From a virus, in IMG/VR virus record IMGVR_UViG_3300025913_000030, positions 1 to 64,000 of that record: a stretch of DNA of 64,000 bases. One strand, 5' to 3'. Shown here piece by piece: positions 2,954 through 49,545 of the stretch (positions are counted from its first letter, which is position 1; every line of letters starts with the position of its first letter). Both the position numbers and the translations under genes were made by a program. The notes under the pieces were generated by a model. It did not search any database. It was not told where the DNA came from and saw only the letters and a list, made by a program, of their open reading frames with translations.

Positions 2954-3238
2954 ATGATGACGGAAACCTCCCGGCCCTCGGTGGGCCGGATCGTGCACTA
3001 CGTCTCGTACGGGACGCCCGGCGGCGAGTACGGCAAGGAGTGCCGCGCCGCGATCGTGACGGAGGTTTCGGCTGATGATCCCTCCATCGTCGGTCTATGC
3101 GTGCTCAATCCGACCGGACTCTTCCTGAACCAGGGCTGCAAGCAGGACGAGGGAAGTCTCACGCCGATCTCGATCAACGGCGGCCCGGCCTCGCTGCCGT
3201 ATCCGGGCGGTACCTGGCACTGGCCCGAGCGGGTCTGA
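2954..3238 (+). CDS. Phage hypothetical protein
   Basis: PSVGRIVHYV...RAAIVTEV...GTWHWPER, a pattern I recall from other phages; AAGGA RBS. Confidence 0.65.
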   Translation: MMTETSRPSVGRIVHYVSYGTPGGEYGKECRAAIVTEVSADDPSIVGLCVLNPTGLFLNQGCKQDEGSLTPISINGGPASLPYPGGTWHWPERV

Positions 3239-10831: not shown

Positions 10832-10890
10832 GACAGGGCACAGACATGAAAGTCGGCGCAATCCCGGGGAGGAGGGACTGCGCCGACCGG

Positions 10891-10963
10891 TAGCGGGAAC
10901 GGGACTTGAACCCGTGACACAGCGATTATGAGCCGCCTGCTCTGCCGTCTGAGCTACCCCGCC
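10891..10963 (-). tRNA. tRNA-Met(CAT), probably elongator
   Basis: GGCGGGGTAGCTCAGACGGCAGAGCAGGCGGCTCATAATCGCTGTGTCACGGGTTCAAGTCCCGTTCCCGCTA forms a full cloverleaf with loop CTCATAA; CCA not encoded. Confidence 0.9.
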
Positions 10964-44053: not shown

Positions 44054-44247
44054 CCAAGTCTGGCTGATCAACTGCCTGCCGTGTCCTAGCAGATCCTCGC
44101 GGATGGCGCGCGCACCGTCCTTGAATCAACTACCCGGAGCTGACGAGGCTCCTTGAACCACTGCAAACAGGCGGGGGAAGACCGCAGCAACCTTACTCCC
44201 GCTTTGACCCGCGCCCCTCACCGGTCAAGGCTACTCACGCGGATATG

Positions 44248-44321
<74 letters not shown>

Positions 44322-44429: not shown

Positions 44430-46157
44430 TTACATCGAGCGGCGCGCCTCGTGCAGCAGCTCCTGCACGTTGTCGTCCGTGCGCGGCGAGCGCAGGAACC
44501 CGGAGACCAGCTGCGGCAGCGCCGCGTCGAATCCAGCCACCTGCAGCACACCCTGCTGCTTCGGGTCGGCGATCGAGTGGCCGGCCGCGGTCATCGACGC
44601 GACGATGACGCGCGCCTGCGGATTCACCGACGAACGGTAGCCGTCCAGAGCCTGGCTCGGGTGCTGGTACCGGCCGGCCCACGTCTCGTTGTCCGTCAGC
44701 ACCAGGAACCCGTCGACCGCGATCCGCTGGGAAGCGGCCCACTCGAACGGGAGTGACAGGTCCGTCCCGCCGCCGCTCGGCTGCCAGGACGCGATCTCGC
44801 GCAGGTTGGTGCGCGGCGTGACCCGCGACCTGCGCACGGCGGTGTCGACGTCGATGACGTGGACGTTGCCCTTCTCGATCCGGGACATCGCCGCCGCCAT
44901 CCCGCACGCGATCTCGTACGGGGAGCCCAGGGGCGAGCCGCCGAGCACGACCCGGCCGCCGAAGCCGTTGGACATCGACCCGGACGAGTCGACCGCGACC
45001 AGCAGCCGCTTCCCCGAAGGCTCGACGTAGCCGAAGGAGAGCTCGTAGGCCTCCTCCAGCGCATCGGAGATCGCCGCGAGCGGTGTCCAGGTGCGCAGCG
45101 GCGCCTTCGGGTTGGGCTGCGCTGCCCCCGAGTTGTAGACCTTCAGGGCGAGGTAGACGTCGAGGGGGTGGATGCGCGCCTTCTTCAACGCCTCGCCGTC
45201 GGTCAGCCGGCGTACGACCGTCGAAACGGCCTCGCCTCCATAGGGCTTGAGAGCCGCGATCCTGGTCATCCGCGCGAGATTGCGGATCAGGGCCGTCATG
45301 CCGACCGTCTCGGTCAGCGCTTCCCAGACCTCGGGCGAGTCGAGTACCGCGTCCGGCAGGAACTCCCACGGCACGCGCAGGGTCCGCACCGCGGTGACCG
45401 CCTCCTTCGGACCTGTGACCGCCTTGGCGATCCGGTACTTCTCCACGCTCGGCAGCACCAGGGCCGCCTGCTCGTCCGGAACGTTGCCCGCGAGCCAGCC
45501 GAACAGGGCGTCGGTCGCCGGGTCCATCTTGATCAGCGATGGCTTCGCGAGGCGCAGCATGTCCCGCAGGGCGAAGGGCTCGCCGCTGCCGGTCTTGCGC
45601 GAGCGGGCCTTGCACGCCCGGAACGCGATGCGGTCCGCGTCGTCGGCCAAGAACCAGTCGGCCAGAGCGCCGCGCATCAGCCGGTTCATGACCGGCGCGA
45701 TGCCCTTCCCCGAGGGCTTGCCCTTGAGGTTCTTGTAGTAGCCCCAGAAATGCGCGAAGTGGTCGGTGGTGCGCGCGATCGATGGCAGCGCACCACGCGC
45801 CGCGCGGCGCGCGTCCAGGTCGCCTCGGGCGAAGGCCGCGGCGAGGACGAAGAGGGCCGGGAAATTCTTCGGCGCGCGGCCGGCGGTGCTGACCTCGGTG
45901 GCCAGCTGGACCGCGCGGCAGCCATCAGCCCCGATCGCGTCGAAGACCACCTGCGCGTTGGCGAAGGTGTGCTCCTTCTCCCCGACGTAGTAGGTGCCGC
46001 CGGTCGTGCCGAGGATCAGGAAGTCCTCAAGCTTCGTCCAGAGGTCCTTGCCGAAGGTGAAGCCGCCCGCGTTGTTGCGGACCATCTCGGCCTGGCGGCC
46101 GGGGATCGGCTCGGTCTGCGGCGTGCGCACGGTGCTGACCATGGACAGGGCGTCCAT
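44430..46157 (-). CDS. rsr: Ro60/Rsr TROVE + vWA RNA-binding protein
   Basis: NNAGGFTF..LEDFLILGTTGGTYY, MTALIRNLARMT and KARIHP motifs; MIDAS VDSSGSM and LTDNETW; GAAAGGA RBS. Confidence 0.95.
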   Translation of the reverse strand: MDALSMVSTVRTPQTEPIPGRQAEMVRNNAGGFTFGKDLWTKLEDFLILGTTGGTYYVGEKEHTFANAQVVFDAIGADGCRAVQLATEVSTAGRAPKNFPALFVLAAAFARGDLDARRAARGALPSIARTTDHFAHFWGYYKNLKGKPSGKGIAPVMNRLMRGALADWFLADDADRIAFRACKARSRKTGSGEPFALRDMLRLAKPSLIKMDPATDALFGWLAGNVPDEQAALVLPSVEKYRIAKAVTGPKEAVTAVRTLRVPWEFLPDAVLDSPEVWEALTETVGMTALIRNLARMTRIAALKPYGGEAVSTVVRRLTDGEALKKARIHPLDVYLALKVYNSGAAQPNPKAPLRTWTPLAAISDALEEAYELSFGYVEPSGKRLLVAVDSSGSMSNGFGGRVVLGGSPLGSPYEIACGMAAAMSRIEKGNVHVIDVDTAVRRSRVTPRTNLREIASWQPSGGGTDLSLPFEWAASQRIAVDGFLVLTDNETWAGRYQHPSQALDGYRSSVNPQARVIVASMTAAGHSIADPKQQGVLQVAGFDAALPQLVSGFLRSPRTDDNVQELLHEARRSM

Positions 46158-46202
46158 CGTGGTTTCCTTTCGAGGATTCAACACGGCCGGGGCCGGACGC
46201 GA

Positions 46203-46237
46203 ACCGGCCCGCACGAGGGGGTGTCGTGCGGGCCGGT
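46203..46237. other. 14-bp perfect hairpin between the Y RNA array and Ro60
   Basis: ACCGGCCCGCACGA/TCGTGCGGGCCGGT with no U-tract; possible attenuator or processing element. Confidence 0.6.
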
Positions 46238-46242
46238 CAGGG

Positions 46243-46371
46243 GACGGATGCGGGAGTGACTACCGGGTTTAAGCGTCTTAGGCCGCTAGACAACCAATCC
46301 CGAGGGATTGGACGGGATTCGAACCCGCGTCTCTCCTTTGCAAGGGGTAACCGATAATCGTTCAACCCGTC
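46243..46371 (-). ncRNA. yrlA: YrlA-like Y RNA A with a permuted tRNA domain (loop UUGCAAA)
   Basis: Order: GACGGGUUGAA..UCGGUUA, anticodon-like hairpin, T arm GCGGG-UUCGAAU-CCCGU, closed 7-bp acceptor, D arm GUCUAGCGGCCUAAGAC, GCAUCCGUC. Confidence 0.85.
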
Positions 46372-46384
46372 GGTGGTGCGAGGT

Positions 46385-46515
46385 GAGCGGATACGGAGGG
46401 CGGCCACCGGTGTTAAGTGCTCTGCCAATTGAGCTACGCACCCGAAGGTGCGACGGGACTTGAACCCGCAACCACTCTCTTAACAGGAGATAACCGACGG
46501 CCTTTCAACCCGCTC
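46385..46515 (-). ncRNA. yrlA: YrlA-like Y RNA B with a permuted tRNA domain (loop CUGUUAA)
   Basis: UCUC-CUGUUAA-GAGA hairpin, T arm, CGCACC-UUCG-GGUGCG acceptor, D arm GCUCAAUUGGCAGAGC, terminal GAGCGG/CCGCUC stem. Confidence 0.88.
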
Positions 46516-46547
46516 GATCGAGCCGTCAGGCTCGGCGATTCACGAGT

Positions 46548-46684
46548 GTCCGGATGCGGTGTCGACCACCGGGTTTTAGCGCTCTACCAGTTGAGCTACC
46601 CATACGGATCTCTCCGTTTGGACGGGATTCGAACCCGCAACCTCTCGAACCAGAATCGATAACCGACGGTCATTCAACCCGGAC
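46548..46684 (-). ncRNA. yrlA: YrlA-like Y RNA C with a permuted tRNA domain (loop UUCUGGU)
   Basis: UCGA-UUCUGGU-UCGA hairpin, T arm, GAGA-capped acceptor, D arm GCUCAACUGGUAGAGC, terminal GUCCGG/CCGGAC stem. Confidence 0.88.
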
Positions 46685-46709
46685 CAGGCTCACTGTGTTC
46701 AGTTGTCAG

Positions 46710-46779
46710 CGGAGCAGATGCGCAAAGCTGGTCCCCGGAGTCATCAGCCAGATAACCGAGAGCCTTTCAACCCGCTCCG
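46710..46779 (-). ncRNA. Minimal Y RNA D (Ro-type stem only)
   Basis: Same GGGUUGAA...UCGGUUA and GCAUCUG boxes as A-C, with no tRNA domain. Confidence 0.75.
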
Positions 46780-46785
46780 AGAAAG

Positions 46786-46815
46786 ACAGTACAGGGCGAC
46801 GTGACTATCCGTCAA
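46786..46815 (-). promoter_or_regulatory. Promoter of the Y RNA/Ro60 unit, with the 15-bp motif
   Basis: TTGACGGATAGTCAC; TTGACG-N18-TACTGT, ending 6 nt before the 5' end of Y RNA D. Confidence 0.8.
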
Positions 46816-46828
46816 CCTGATTTCAGCG

Positions 46829-47191
46829 TCACCACCCGGCGCCCATCCGACCGAGCAGCCGGCGGCCCGCCTCGGGAGAGAGGCCGGCGAAGAACCTGCC
46901 GCCCAGCGACAGGATCCCCACGACGACCACATCGCCATGAACGGCGACGGACACCAGCTGCTCGGCGCGACGGTTGCGCTGTAGCGAGCACAGCTGGTCC
47001 GCGGCAAGGTCCGCCGCGAACACCCGGATCTCGGCTCCGTGGTCGTAACGCGGCACCGACAGCGTGTGCCGCCGCACGTCGTCGTAACCGATCAGCCGGC
47101 GGATCTTGCGCGACGTCGCGCCGTCGGACCACGGGACACGAACCTCCCGCACCGGCTTGTGCCCGTCGGCCGGGACCATGAGCATCTTCAC
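46829..47191 (-). CDS. Hypothetical protein
   Basis: GTGA overlap; NRRAEQL..VHGDVVVVG. Confidence 0.55.
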   Translation of the reverse strand: MKMLMVPADGHKPVREVRVPWSDGATSRKIRRLIGYDDVRRHTLSVPRYDHGAEIRVFAADLAADQLCSLQRNRRAEQLVSVAVHGDVVVVGILSLGGRFFAGLSPEAGRRLLGRMGAGW

Positions 47192-47871: not shown

Positions 47872-48155
47872 CCGGCGTTCACCCACTTCCTCAGCTCGTC
47901 CGTGGTCAGGGCGAGCCTGGCCTCCAGGTCCTTGTTCTTGCGCTCCAGTTCGGCGCAGTTGGCGCACACCGCCGGCTTGCGCACCTGGTCGAGTCGGTAG
48001 GTGCGCGGGAAGGCATCGCCCTTCACCTGCACCTGGTACAGCTCCCGGCCGGAACCGAGCGAGTTGGCGGTCAGCACCACACCGGTCTTCCAACCGGTCA
48101 GTTGCTTGACCTCGACCTGTTCGCCCGGCCGGAATGTCGTGGCAGGCTTAGGCAC
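47868..48155 (-). CDS. SH3-like plus CxxC/coiled-coil protein
   Basis: FRPGEQVEV..GVV..YQVQV and CANC. Confidence 0.55.
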   Translation of the reverse strand: MPKPATTFRPGEQVEVKQLTGWKTGVVLTANSLGSGRELYQVQVKGDAFPRTYRLDQVRKPAVCANCAELERKNKDLEARLALTTDELRKWVNAG

Positions 48156-48441
48156 CGCGCCTCCTGGGATCGCGCGTCATCTCGTCCAGCGTCAGCACGA
48201 AGCGCCCGGGCGGAGGGAAAACACCCGTCCGGAAACACAGCGCCACGGCGTGCGCGGCGTCATGCGCGCCCAGCCGTGCGAACGCCCGGCGCAGGTGCGA
48301 CTTAACCGTCAGGTTACTGATACCGACTCTGTTGCCAGTGTCCTCGTAGGTCAGTCCGTGTGCCTTGCACCAGAGCACTTGCACCTCACGGGACGTCAGC
48401 GGGCTGCCGTGCGGCGGCTTCGGCGCCTTGCTGTCGCTCAT
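48148..48441 (-). CDS. LuxR-type HTH regulator
   Basis: LTSREVQVL..AHGLTYEDTG..TVKSHL..LGA. Confidence 0.85.
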   Translation of the reverse strand: MSDSKAPKPPHGSPLTSREVQVLWCKAHGLTYEDTGNRVGISNLTVKSHLRRAFARLGAHDAAHAVALCFRTGVFPPPGRFVLTLDEMTRDPRRRGA

Positions 48442-48668: not shown

Positions 48669-49039
48669 GCCAGAGCCTGTTCCAGCATCTGGCACAGCGC
48701 CTCGGACAGCGGACCGCCGCTGAACTCGTTGATCACGGTCAGCAGCCCCAGCGCCTCGTTGTTCAGCTGCGGGTCGCCGGGCAGCACCCAGCGCAGTACG
48801 TCCGGGTCGTTCAGGTTCCACTCCTCCCGCGGTGCGGGCGTGACACCAGTACCGCTGCGGACGGCGACCAGGCCCTTGGCCCGCAACTCGGCGAGCGCAT
48901 CGCGCACGACGGTGCGGGAGACGGCGTACTGCTTCGCCAGGTCCTCGGTCGTCGTGGGGTTCGCCAGTTCGCCCGTGACAATGCGCGGGCCGAGGATGCC
49001 GGCCAGGGACTTGCCCATGGATCCTTGCGTCATGATCAT
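48665..49039 (-). CDS. GntR/FadR-type wHTH regulator (short)
   Basis: EDLAKQYAVSRTVVRDALAELRAKGLV..GTGV..WNLNDPDVLRW. Confidence 0.85.
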   Translation of the reverse strand: MIMTQGSMGKSLAGILGPRIVTGELANPTTTEDLAKQYAVSRTVVRDALAELRAKGLVAVRSGTGVTPAPREEWNLNDPDVLRWVLPGDPQLNNEALGLLTVINEFSGGPLSEALCQMLEQALA

Positions 49040-49545
49040 CGATAGGCTCCAGTCGTGATGCGGCAGCGGACCGCTTCCATGGCGCGCAGCTGCAGTTGTT
49101 TGGCCGCGCCGTCGCTGATGGCGAGCGCGGCCGAGGTCTCCTTGATCGACAGGTCACGCAGAAACCTCAGCTCCAGGCAGCGGCGCTGGTTGGGGACCAG
49201 GCCGCGCAGCGCCTGATTGACCGTGGTGCGGTACAGCGTCTGCTGGACCTGCTCCCACACGTCGGGGGCGACGCGGTCGGCGTCGTACATGTCTGCCGTG
49301 GGCACTTCGCAGCGCACGCGCGCCGACTTCAGATGGTCGGCGAGCAGGTTGCGCGCGATCGTGACCAGCCACGCCTGCCTGCAGCTGCCGCGCTCGGTGT
49401 AGCTGTCCCAGCGGGCCAGGGCACGGGCGAAGGTCTCCGCCGTCAGATCCTCGGCGGTCTCGTGGTGGCGCAGCCGCTTGTAGAGGAACTGGAAGACGAA
49501 CCGGTGACTCTCGCGGTAGGCCTGCTCGATCCCGTCAGCGTCCAC
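49036..49545 (-). CDS. ECF sigma factor, BldN/AdsA-like
   Basis: TAEDLTAETFARAL, AWLVTIARNLLADHLKSARVRCEV, LRFL..LS..ET and GAAKQLQLRA. Confidence 0.88.
   Translation of the reverse strand: MDADGIEQAYRESHRFVFQFLYKRLRHHETAEDLTAETFARALARWDSYTERGSCRQAWLVTIARNLLADHLKSARVRCEVPTADMYDADRVAPDVWEQVQQTLYRTTVNQALRGLVPNQRRCLELRFLRDLSIKETSAALAISDGAAKQLQLRAMEAVRCRITTGAYR

What the first reader, a model, noticed from the sequence alone, without database searches (positions are those of the whole stretch)
46243..46684. Y RNAs carrying complete circularly permuted tRNAs with different anticodon loops
Seen: three minus-strand units of 129-137 nt share one order. It runs 5' GGGUUGAA..UCGGUUA, anticodon hairpin, variable loop, T arm (GCGGG-UUCRARU-CCCGU), acceptor stem sealed by a tetraloop (CUCG, UUCG, GAGA), D arm, then a 3' strand pairing back to the 5' end. 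The 7-nt loops look like real anticodon loops with U33 and a purine at 37: CU-GUU-AA (Asn), UU-CUG-GU (Gln) and UU-GCA-AA (Cys; the stem is imperfect and an Ala UGC register is possible). In B and C the hairpin supplies only positions 28-42, while C27 after the D arm can pair with G43. The long stem therefore sits like an intron at 27/28 of an otherwise whole cloverleaf. Known: YrlA RNAs mimic tRNA with T, acceptor and D arms, and as I recall the Ro-binding stem takes the place of the anticodon arm. Mycobacterial VapC4 and VapC11 cut tRNA-Cys(GCA) and tRNA-Gln(CUG). Inference: these may be Ro60-protected, non-chargeable decoys for host anticodon nucleases. Alternatively they are precursors matured into tRNAs by excision and ligation at 27/28 plus acceptor opening, as in permuted tRNA genes.
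Basis: partly seen in the sequence, partly recalled or inferred. Interest (0 to 1): 0.92.

Follow-up and report, generated by a model that had tools for sequence, protein, structure and literature searches.

The report
Phage Y RNAs keeping tRNA anticodon arms
Three small RNA genes in front of a phage's Ro60 gene are known-type "Y RNAs" that imitate a whole tRNA written in rotated order, including a real-looking anticodon hairpin that the literature had filed as a variable arm; what the hairpin is for is still untested.

Summary
On the minus strand a complete 74.7-kb actinophage carries one short and three long (132-138 nt) Y RNAs, then a Ro60/TROVE gene. The long units are YrlA-class RNAs, below Rfam's cut-off. 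Their hairpin 5' of the T arm sits in exact tRNA anticodon-arm register. It has a 7-nt loop ending 10 nt (9 in unit C) before the T stem.

In 102 non-redundant homologues from phages and Streptosporangiales chromosomes the loop reads C32 U33 NNN R37 A38. There are 38 different triplets, and G37 occurs almost only after G36, as in host-clade tRNAs. Re-permuted units are called tRNAs by ARAGORN.

- Covariation shows that pairs 27:43 and 28:42 are made in trans, so the Ro60 stem branches between 28 and 29, not 27/28.
- Unit C's loop, by homology and spacing, reads UGC (Ala-like), not GCA.

The hairpin is not new. M. smegmatis YrlA has it, and Chen et al. 2014 call it the variable arm "V". Reading it as an anticodon arm was absent from the papers I could search. 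This scan has reached the same reading before on other DNA. The decoy function remains untested, and maturation into tRNAs is unlikely.

The parts
46786..46815 (-). Putative promoter of the Y RNA array (TTGACG, 18 nt, TACTGT)
   Evidence: Read directly from the sequence. The consensus scan did not call it, so it is only a candidate. An RNA-library contig starts just downstream, at 46769.
46710..46779 (-). Short Y RNA (U0, YrlB-like): same 5' handle and 3' CAUCUG-CUCC end, no T, acceptor or D arms
   Evidence: Sequence and fold (z = -2.9). Similar short units scored with model R1 in other loci, but this one did not reach E 0.01.
46548..46685 (-). Y RNA unit A, YrlA class with closed anticodon-like arm. 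Hairpin 46659-46645, loop UUCUGGU 46655-46649, triplet CUG 46653-46651. Nucleotides 26-28 lie at 46580-46578.
   Evidence: Rfam YrlA 36.1 bits, below the cut-off of 69. Model R1 125.9 bits. After re-permutation ARAGORN calls tRNA-Gln(CTG).
46385..46516 (-). Y RNA unit B. Hairpin 46490-46476, loop CUGUUAA 46486-46480, triplet GUU 46484-46482. Nucleotides 26-28 lie at 46418-46416.
   Evidence: Rfam YrlA 50.7 bits. R1 130.7 bits. Re-permuted: tRNA-Asn(GTT). The loop is identical to the tRNA-Asn loop of a Nonomuraea genome. Stem covariation against Microbacterium phage SM23: UCUC/GAGA versus UCGC/GCGG.
46242..46373 (-). Y RNA unit C, with a Glu-like D loop and a 4-nt variable loop. Stem 46347-46345 with 46337-46335 (C31.A39 mismatch), loop CUUGCAA 46344-46338, triplet UGC 46342-46340. 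Nucleotides 26-28 lie at 46274-46272. The acceptor stem has 7 bp.
   Evidence: Rfam YrlA 22.2 bits, partial. R1 108.4 bits. The register comes from homologues with CCU...AGG stems and 9-nt spacing and from the trans pairs A42:U28 and G43:C27 (logic). A variant with C46345 changed to U in an RNA-library contig restores 31:39. ARAGORN prefers the other register, GCA.
46202..46238 (-). G+C-rich hairpin after the array (terminator-like, no U run)
   Evidence: Read from the sequence. Not called by the terminator scan. The RNA-library contig ends at 46234.
44430..46157 (-). Ro60/Rsr orthologue (TROVE + Ro60 vWA domain), 575 aa
   Evidence: Pfam PF25045 at 1.1e-37 and PF05731 at 2.5e-19. It is 60-66% identical to Streptosporangiales Ro60 proteins and up to 81% to other phage copies.

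Best explanation
Shown.
The three units are Y RNAs of the YrlA class, encoded as an array in front of the phage's Ro60 gene. Each is a complete tRNA mimic in rotated order. The 5' and 3' ends form the handle stem that is homologous to the Ro60-binding module of characterised Y RNAs. Inside lie an anticodon-like arm, a variable loop, a T arm, a loop-closed acceptor stem and a D arm.

The anticodon stem is built from three strands. Nucleotides 27 and 28, which follow the D arm, pair in trans with 43 and 42. A 3-bp hairpin supplies 29-31:39-41 and a 7-nt loop. The handle stem therefore branches off between 28 and 29.

The loops obey the anticodon-loop grammar of actinobacterial tRNAs: C/U32, U33, a free triplet, A37 (or G37 after G36), and A38. 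They read CUG, GUU and, most likely, UGC.

Inferred by homology.
The RNAs are bound by the phage Ro60. Those with a 7-bp acceptor stem, such as unit C, may be cut by RNase P and receive CCA, as M. smegmatis YrlA does.

Inferred, about 30% likely.
The anticodon arm is kept so that each Y RNA imitates one particular tRNA towards proteins that read anticodon loops, such as anticodon nucleases of host toxin or defence systems, modification enzymes or synthetases. In that role it would act as a Ro60-held bait, decoy or tether.
For: Family and context. Rfam YrlA matches lie below the cut-off. A Ro60 gene lies directly downstream. Arrays of 2-4 such RNAs precede Ro60 in 79 phage loci and 80 bacterial loci.

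Register. A 7-nt loop ends 10 nt before the T stem in 53 of 86 segments, and 9 nt before it in 18, against about 5 in shuffles. That spacing equals tRNA positions 39-48.

Loop grammar. U33 in 93/102, R37 in 97/102, A38 in 87/102, 38 distinct triplets, A34 in only 8/102. G37 follows G36 in 24/30 cases and another base in 3/72 (Fisher 1e-14).

Same grammar in real tRNAs. In 36 tRNAs of a Nonomuraea genome, G36 is followed by G37 in 4/5, and otherwise 37 is not G in 30/31. 41/102 Y loops are identical over all 7 nt to one of those tRNA loops.

Stem. The hairpin is 90% paired, with 22, 58 and 52 double changes in its three pairs.

Trans pairs. 42:28 shows G:C 63, A:U 33, C:G 6 and G:U 4, so 107/118 are paired. 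The shuffle mean is 75, and 0 of 10000 shuffles reach 107. 43:27 shows G:C 95, A:U 5 and G:U 8.

Re-permutation. About 50 units are called tRNAs by ARAGORN.

Sister class. In the same loci a class without the hairpin has all five pairs 27-31:39-43 in trans (24 of 46).

Experimental anchor. M. smegmatis YrlA carries the same hairpin, is bound by Rsr, is cut by RNase P and gets CCA (PMC4201824).

Weak expression hint. One 538-nt contig of a metatranscriptome run covers exactly 46234-46769.

Context for the functional guess.
- The triplet changes between congeneric Herbidospora species on an unchanged stem.
- The phage has an Rnl2-type RNA ligase.
- Actinobacteria hold many tRNA-specific anticodon-loop nucleases (PMC5175351).
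Against: No binding, processing, modification or cleavage data exist for these RNAs, and the RNA-library contig may be DNA carry-over.

The triplets are not more 'sense-like' than their own position frequencies predict (92/102 against 0.87 expected). Three of them read stop codons. Drift under a shape constraint would also fit this.

Sequences are related, so the Fisher and shuffle figures overstate independence.

The U just 5' of the hairpin could also pair with A42 or G42 in cis. It never varies, so the cis pair cannot be excluded in units A and B.

No nuclease or RNA-repair gene is conserved next to the arrays. The same arrays sit on bacterial chromosomes, so a purely anti-defence role for the phage cannot be the whole story.
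Confidence: 0.55

Rival explanations
1. Generic module. The anticodon-arm shape is an inherited structural or protein-binding element of YrlA. Its loop frame (U33, R37, A38) is kept for folding or for one unknown effector. The triplet drifts neutrally, and no particular tRNA is being imitated.
For: Positions 34-36 show near-maximal variety, with 38 triplets in 102 loops. Three stop-reading and eight A34 triplets occur. The share of sense anticodons is no higher than the position frequencies predict. The arrays also sit in bacterial chromosomes with unrelated neighbours.
Against: The coupling of G37 to G36 (24/30 against 3/72) and the depletion of A34 copy rules of real tRNAs. A pure shape constraint does not predict either. 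41/102 loops equal a host-clade tRNA loop at all seven positions.
Confidence: 0.3
2. Published reading. The hairpin is the counterpart of a tRNA variable arm ('V' of Chen et al. 2014), and the stem leading to the Ro60 module is the anticodon stem.
For: PMC4201824 draws YrlA this way. In S. Typhimurium YrlA the crystal structure shows the anticodon stem continuing to the Ro60 module (bioRxiv 10.1101/312249). Hairpin-less units in the same loci fit that picture.
Against: The hairpin is followed by 42, 43 and a normal 4-5 nt variable loop (consensus RGGUY). No unpaired nucleotide separates it from pairs 28:42 and 27:43. A class II variable arm lies after 44-45 and directly before 48 (established tRNA numbering, from my own knowledge). 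The loop is 7 nt with U33 and R37.
Confidence: 0.06
3. Permuted pre-tRNAs. The handle stem is excised, the ends are ligated, the acceptor loop is opened, and the products decode.
For: M. smegmatis YrlA is opened by RNase P and receives CCA in vivo. Re-permuted units pass ARAGORN. The phage has an RNA ligase.
Against: Both halves of M. smegmatis YrlA stay bound to Rsr. Stop-reading and A34 triplets occur. The triplet differs between close relatives. Acceptor stems are about 6 to 9 bp in these three units and vary in length among homologues. By inspection the junction has no bulge-helix-bulge. The conserved handle and the constant linkage to Ro60 are unexplained by this reading.
Confidence: 0.04
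4. Alternative fold. The hairpin does not form. Its 5' half pairs with the 3' linker after the D arm, as the Rfam YrlA alignment of unit B implies (UGUUAAG with CUUAACA, 7 bp).
For: The cmscan alignment and the centroid fold of unit B use this pairing.
Against: The pairing is not general. The longest complementary run between a loop and its own linker averages 3.19. With permuted partners it averages 3.18, and 262 of 500 permutations are at least as high. The hairpin stem covaries.
Confidence: 0.03

Closest known systems
YrlA (Y RNA-like A; Rfam RF02553), especially M. smegmatis YrlA (Chen et al. 2014, PMC4201824)
   Same: It lies directly upstream of rsr/Ro60, often in arrays with a short YrlB-like RNA. 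It has a 5' handle of the GNCGAA type, T arm, closed acceptor stem and D arm in that order, and the Levitt 15:48 covariation. The M. smegmatis RNA carries the same hairpin (CCA-CUUCUAA-UGG).
   Different: The three units score below Rfam's gathering cut-off. The Rfam model has no hairpin. The handle reads GUUGAA instead of GNCGAA. The literature reads the hairpin as a variable arm, whereas register, loop grammar and trans covariation identify it as an anticodon arm.
S. Typhimurium YrlA crystal structure (Wang et al. 2018, bioRxiv 10.1101/312249, PDB 6cu1)
   Same: L-shaped tRNA mimic with a closed acceptor stem. The anticodon stem is formed by the strands that lead to the Ro60 module.
   Different: According to that paper, this RNA 'lacks the anticodon loop'. 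It corresponds to the hairpin-less class seen here in the same loci. The units of this finding keep a closed loop, and the Ro60 stem leaves sideways between 28 and 29.
Circularly permuted tRNA genes of Cyanidioschyzon merolae and relatives (from my own knowledge)
   Same: The 3' half of the cloverleaf is encoded before the 5' half, and the acceptor ends are joined in the primary transcript.
   Different: Those are matured into decoding tRNAs through a bulge-helix-bulge junction and the splicing endonuclease. Here there is no such junction, the host is bacterial, the handle is conserved, and the gene is tied to Ro60.
Phage tRNAs that escape anticodon nucleases through loop changes (van den Berg et al. 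2023, eLife 85183; seen only as a reference in PMC11482910)
   Same: Phage-encoded RNAs whose anticodon loops are the point of contact with host tRNA-cutting defences. This is the functional analogy behind the decoy idea.
   Different: Those are chargeable, decoding tRNAs that replace host tRNAs. The Y RNAs have a closed acceptor end and a Ro60 handle.
D. radiodurans Yrn1 (Chen et al. 2014)
   Same: A Y RNA that can be drawn with an 'anticodon arm' of 5 bp.
   Different: Its loop has 6 nt, its D arm is doubtful, and its arms are oriented differently relative to the ends.

Membership tests
YrlA-class Y RNA | Encoded next to an rsr/Ro60 (TROVE) gene | tested here: met
   The Ro60 gene lies at 46157-44430, about 85 nt downstream of unit C.
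YrlA-class Y RNA | T arm, loop-closed acceptor stem and D arm in this order, with tRNA-like conserved nucleotides | tested here: met
   cmscan alignments to RF02553 cover the T, acceptor and D arms in all three units. Read from the sequence, the Levitt pair is A15:U48 in A and B and G15:C48 in C.
YrlA-class Y RNA | Score at or above Rfam's gathering cut-off (69 bits) | tested here: not met
   Scores are 50.7, 36.1 and 22.2 bits. The model lacks the hairpin and forces another pairing, so the shortfall reflects the model's make-up.
YrlA-class Y RNA | 5' strand motif GNCGAAN0-1G thought to contact Ro60 | tested here: inconclusive
   The units read GGGUUGAAUG, GGGUUGAAAG and GGGUUGAACG, with U where the motif has C. 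Relatives read GGUCGAA, GGCCGAA and GGCCGGA.
YrlA-class Y RNA | Bound by Rsr/Ro60 and carrying tRNA-type modifications | not testable with these tools
   Shown only for S. Typhimurium and M. smegmatis YrlA (PMC4201824).
tRNA (decoding) | Cloverleaf in linear order with free 5' and 3' acceptor ends | tested here: not met
   ARAGORN and the Rfam tRNA model do not call the native units (sub-threshold pieces). They are called only after re-permutation.
tRNA (decoding) | 5-bp anticodon stem and 7-nt loop with U33 and purine 37, 10 nt before the T stem | tested here: met
   The stem is split, with 2 bp in trans and 3 bp in the hairpin. Unit C has a C.A mismatch at 31:39.
Permuted tRNA genes (C. merolae type) | Bulge-helix-bulge motif at the junction of leader and trailer, for the splicing endonuclease | tested here: not met
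   By inspection, the junction is a 9-bp stem joined through UUA(U) and (U)AAAC linkers, without two 3-nt bulges spaced by 4 bp. Bacteria lack that endonuclease (my own knowledge).
Class II tRNA variable arm (published reading of the hairpin) | Hairpin placed after 44-45 and directly before 48, with a short loop | tested here: not met
   The hairpin is followed by 42, 43 and a full 4-5 nt variable loop, and its loop has 7 nt.

The most novel reading that the evidence does not exclude
Ro60 loci of phages and actinobacteria carry panels of Y RNAs, each of which impersonates one specific tRNA down to its anticodon loop. The triplet is the variable 'address'. It would decide which anticodon-reading protein (toxin or defence nuclease, modification enzyme, synthetase) is baited, blocked or brought to Ro60 and its nuclease partners. 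This would make Ro60/Y RNA a programmable, tRNA-specific surveillance or counter-defence particle.
Probability: 0.2. Interest if true: 0.85.

Novelty: new variant of a known kind. Interest (0 to 1): 0.62.

Why it matters
The effector side of bacterial Y RNAs is an open question. YrlA's tRNA-like domain is known to be a close tRNA mimic, but nobody knows what it binds.

In a large subclass, which includes the experimentally studied M. smegmatis YrlA, the mimic carries a full anticodon arm. That arm follows host tRNA loop rules and has a fast-changing triplet. This points the search towards proteins that read anticodon loops.

It also makes concrete experiments possible:
- mapping modifications at positions 34 and 37;
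- cleavage and competition assays with anticodon nucleases;
- triplet swaps.

There is a practical side as well. These RNAs are mis-annotated as tRNAs in deposited phage genomes, and Rfam's model misses them.

Tried and rejected
- Rfam at gathering threshold gave no YrlA hit, only two tRNA-Met genes.
- The phage database holds no close relative of the locus. It returned only tRNA-like pieces.
- The alternative pairing of the loop with the 3' linker is rejected as a family feature.
- The exact probe-derived M. smegmatis pattern found nothing in genome contigs, so the M. smegmatis locus itself was not inspected. A sample of 151 Mycobacteriales genomes gave hits in only 9.
- The promoter and terminator consensus scans called nothing in 46000-47000.
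- Conserved neighbours were sought without result, in the phage and in six bacterial loci.
- RtcB, a CCA-adding enzyme and a PNK-type kinase were not found in the phage genome.
- tRNA genes downstream of Ro60 are not a conserved feature.
- Enrichment of sense anticodons beyond position-specific composition was not found.
- The second RNA run of the same sample (X24) laid nothing. Small-share runs were not interpreted.
- The review PMC10870794 is not held.

Full report
**What is there**

The window is 64 kb of a complete 74.7-kb virus record with terminal repeats and 68% G+C. On the minus strand a Ro60/Rsr orthologue (46157-44430) carries a TROVE domain and a Ro60 vWA domain. Four small-RNA units precede it:
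- a short unit at about 46779-46710, with no tRNA domain;
- three long units: A (46685-46548), B (46516-46385) and C (46373-46242).

A G+C-rich hairpin (46238-46202) follows unit C. An initiator-like tRNA-Met follows the Ro60 gene.

The closest cellular Ro60 proteins, at 60-66% identity, are from Streptosporangiales such as Nonomuraea, Streptosporangium and Actinomadura. This suggests the host clade.

**Family**

At gathering threshold Rfam reports nothing here. At E-value threshold all three long units hit YrlA (RF02553) at 50.7, 36.1 and 22.2 bits against a cut-off of 69.

The Rfam model has no hairpin between the 5' strand and the T arm. For unit B it instead pairs the hairpin's 5' half with the linker after the D arm.

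Chen et al. [quoted passage not shown] Their 5' probe shows that M. smegmatis YrlA contains UUA-CCA-CUUCUAA-UGG. That is the same hairpin as in many homologues found here.

That RNA is bound by Rsr, cut by RNase P in the acceptor loop, and given CCA in vivo.

So the RNAs are members of a known family, and the hairpin as such is known. What is at stake is what the hairpin is.

**Homologues**

I built a covariance model from the three units plus three units of Gordonia phage Boopy and Microbacterium phage SM23. In those phages they are annotated as tRNA-Ile, tRNA-Leu and tRNA-Asn.

The model found 141 matches in the window and 81 phage loci, 79 of them fetched through Ro60. It found 188 matches in 80 bacterial Ro60 loci. 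Arrays of two to four units upstream of Ro60 are the rule in both.

**The hairpin is in anticodon-arm register**

I took the segment between the invariant GGUUA and the T stem and made no assumption about its fold.
- A 7-nt loop closed by at least three pairs and ending exactly 10 nt before the T stem occurs in 53 of 86 non-redundant segments.
- A loop ending 9 nt before the T stem occurs in 18.
- Every other combination of loop length and distance is near the shuffle expectation of about 5. The one exception is the same hairpin counted one pair short.

Ten nucleotides is what a tRNA has between position 38 and the T stem (39-43 plus a 5-nt variable loop). Nine fits the units with a Glu-like D loop and a 4-nt variable loop.

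The segment is 19-22 nt long in 130 of 183 parsed Y RNAs.

**The loop obeys tRNA grammar**

In 102 non-redundant hairpins:
- position 32 is C in 74 and U in 18;
- position 33 is U in 93;
- position 37 is a purine in 97 (A 70, G 27);
- position 38 is A in 87;
- positions 34-36 carry 38 different triplets;
- A34 is rare (8);
- G37 occurs after G36 in 24 of 30 cases and otherwise in 3 of 72 (Fisher 1e-14; the sequences are related, so this overstates independence).

The same rule holds in 36 tRNAs taken from one Nonomuraea genome. There G36 is followed by G37 in 4 of 5, and otherwise 37 is not G in 30 of 31. 41 of the 102 Y loops are identical at all seven positions to one of those tRNA loops. 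Unit B's CUGUUAA is that genome's tRNA-Asn loop.

Real tRNAs in the same loci have a similar loop profile.

The share of sense anticodons (92/102) is not above what the position frequencies predict (0.87), and three triplets would read stop codons. The imitation therefore concerns the loop frame and the 36/37 rule, not a working decoding set.

**Re-permutation**

I joined the D-arm half to the hairpin half and opened the acceptor loop. ARAGORN then called about 50 units tRNAs, with the triplet as anticodon. Unit B became Asn(GTT), unit A Gln(CTG) and unit C Cys(GCA).

**Where the Ro60 stem branches**

Across 118 hairpin-class RNAs, the nucleotide after the 3-bp hairpin stem (42) covaries with the third nucleotide after the D stem:
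- G:C 63, A:U 33, C:G 6 and G:U 4, so 107 are paired;
- the shuffle mean is 75, and none of 10000 shuffles reaches 107.

Position 43 pairs with the second nucleotide after the D stem (G:C 95, A:U 5, G:U 8).

The U that precedes the hairpin in cis never varies and gives no information. When 42 is C, only the trans partner fits.

The anticodon stem is thus made of 27-28:42-43 in trans and 29-31:39-41 in the hairpin. The handle stem leaves between 28 and 29.

On the mixed alignment the tool counts 90% pairing, with 22, 58 and 52 double changes for the three hairpin pairs, and 77.5% pairing for the trans helix.

In the same loci a second class of Y RNA has a short segment (15-18 nt) and no hairpin. 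In 24 of 46 of these, all five pairs 27-31:39-43 are formed in trans. This is the S. Typhimurium design, which 'lacks the anticodon loop' (bioRxiv 10.1101/312249).

The two classes differ only in where the Ro60 module is attached: at the loop, or at 28/29.

**Unit C**

Its relatives with the same body type have CCU-(7 nt)-AGG followed by A, G and a 4-nt variable loop. In that register unit C reads CCC-CUUGCAA-AGG, which gives:
- triplet UGC;
- a C.A mismatch at 31:39;
- trans pairs A42:U28 and G43:C27.

A near-identical phage in a rhizosphere metatranscriptome has U instead of C at 46345, which restores 31:39. In the other register that change would only turn a C-G pair into U.G.

CUUGCAA is the tRNA-Ala(UGC) loop of the Nonomuraea genome.

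**Alternative fold**

The 7-bp pairing between unit B's loop and its 3' linker is a peculiarity of that lineage. Over the family, complementarity between a loop and its own linker equals that with permuted partners (3.19 against 3.18).

**Turnover of the triplet**

- Seven Herbidospora species keep the stem UCGA/UCGA but read UUCUGGA, CUUCGGA or CUCCGGA.
- Boopy's unit has the same stem as unit A but the loop AUUGGGA.
- The two closest phages (Ro60 81% and 75% identical) share CUG and GUU with units A and B. At the position of unit C they read GAA and UCC.

**Expression**

A metatranscriptomic run holds 73% of the sampled words. Its longest and best-matching contig is 538 nt with 3 differences. 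It spans 46234-46769, from just inside the short first unit to just past the end of unit C. Neighbouring pieces are shorter, more divergent and shallower.

Contigs cannot show ends, strand or level, and DNA can contaminate RNA libraries. This is only a weak hint of one precursor for the four RNAs.

**Function**

Nothing here tests function.
- The neighbours of the arrays are not conserved.
- The phage lacks RtcB, a CCA-adding enzyme and a PNK-type kinase.
- It has an Rnl2-type RNA ligase outside the window.
- Actinobacteria carry many toxins that cut specific tRNAs in the anticodon loop. VapC4 cuts Cys-GCA; VapC11 cuts Leu-CAG and, weakly, Gln-CUG (PMC5175351).
- In E. coli phage Bas63 a Ro60-like protein counters the Ppl defence system (PMC11482910).

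The 36/37 coupling and the A34 depletion argue that each loop is kept like that of a real tRNA, not merely loop-shaped. That is what a mimic aimed at anticodon-reading proteins needs. I therefore rank the bait, decoy or tether reading first, at about 30%. The neutral shape reading is close behind.

Maturation into decoding tRNAs is unlikely for the reasons listed under the rivals.

**Relation to earlier notes of this scan**

Notes on other genomes (e1-5694908, e1-3496498, e1-5825729) reached the same 'YrlA keeps an anticodon arm' reading. I reached it from my own tests.

New here:
- the three-strand anticodon stem with the branch at 28/29;
- the 36/37 rule matched to host-clade tRNAs;
- the two attachment classes;
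- the presence of the same arrays on Streptosporangiales chromosomes.

I found no paper that reads the hairpin as an anticodon arm.

Noticed in passing
window 44247-44321 (-) and 10889-10963 (-): There are two tRNA-Met(CAT) genes. The one directly after Ro60 has three G:C pairs at the foot of the anticodon stem and a mismatched 1:72 pair (A.C in the Rfam alignment), so it looks like an initiator. A tRNA after Ro60 is not a conserved feature of related loci.
   Followed up: partly
G000:C1 about 71428-72333 (outside the window; L214:1444-2349, minus strand): The phage encodes a 301-aa Rnl2-type RNA ligase (Pfam PF09414 2.4e-12; phrog_548). RtcB, a CCA-adding enzyme and a PNK-type kinase were not found in the genome.
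   Followed up: partly
L001:2985-3051 (Microbacterium phage SM23); L002:2779-2846 and 2965-3053 (Gordonia phage Boopy): Deposited annotations 'tRNA-Asn', 'tRNA-Ile' and 'tRNA-Leu' are parts of Y RNAs (5' handle, anticodon-like hairpin and T arm). ARAGORN makes the same kind of call at some Y RNAs of other loci, for example L052, L078 and L006.
   Followed up: partly
window 46710-46779 (-): A fourth, short Y RNA heads the array. It has the same handle but no tRNA-like domain. Similar 65-95 nt units are common in related arrays.
   Followed up: partly
L085-L164 (for example L100:869-1442): Streptosporangiales chromosomes and plasmids carry the same layout: a short unit, one or two hairpin-class units, a hairpin-less unit, then rsr. 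Flanking genes are unrelated between genera (serpin, glycosyl hydrolase, DUF2252, GyrI-like). The module therefore looks self-contained and mobile.
   Followed up: partly
window 48148-48441 (-) and 49036-49545 (-): Two sigma-factor-like genes (phrog_3282, phrog_1740) lie upstream of the Y RNA and Ro60 module on the same strand.
   Followed up: no
window 46234-46769: A rhizosphere metatranscriptome run holds a 538-nt contig that coincides with the four-RNA array and differs at only 3 positions. One difference is C46345 to U, which repairs the 31:39 pair of unit C.
   Followed up: yes
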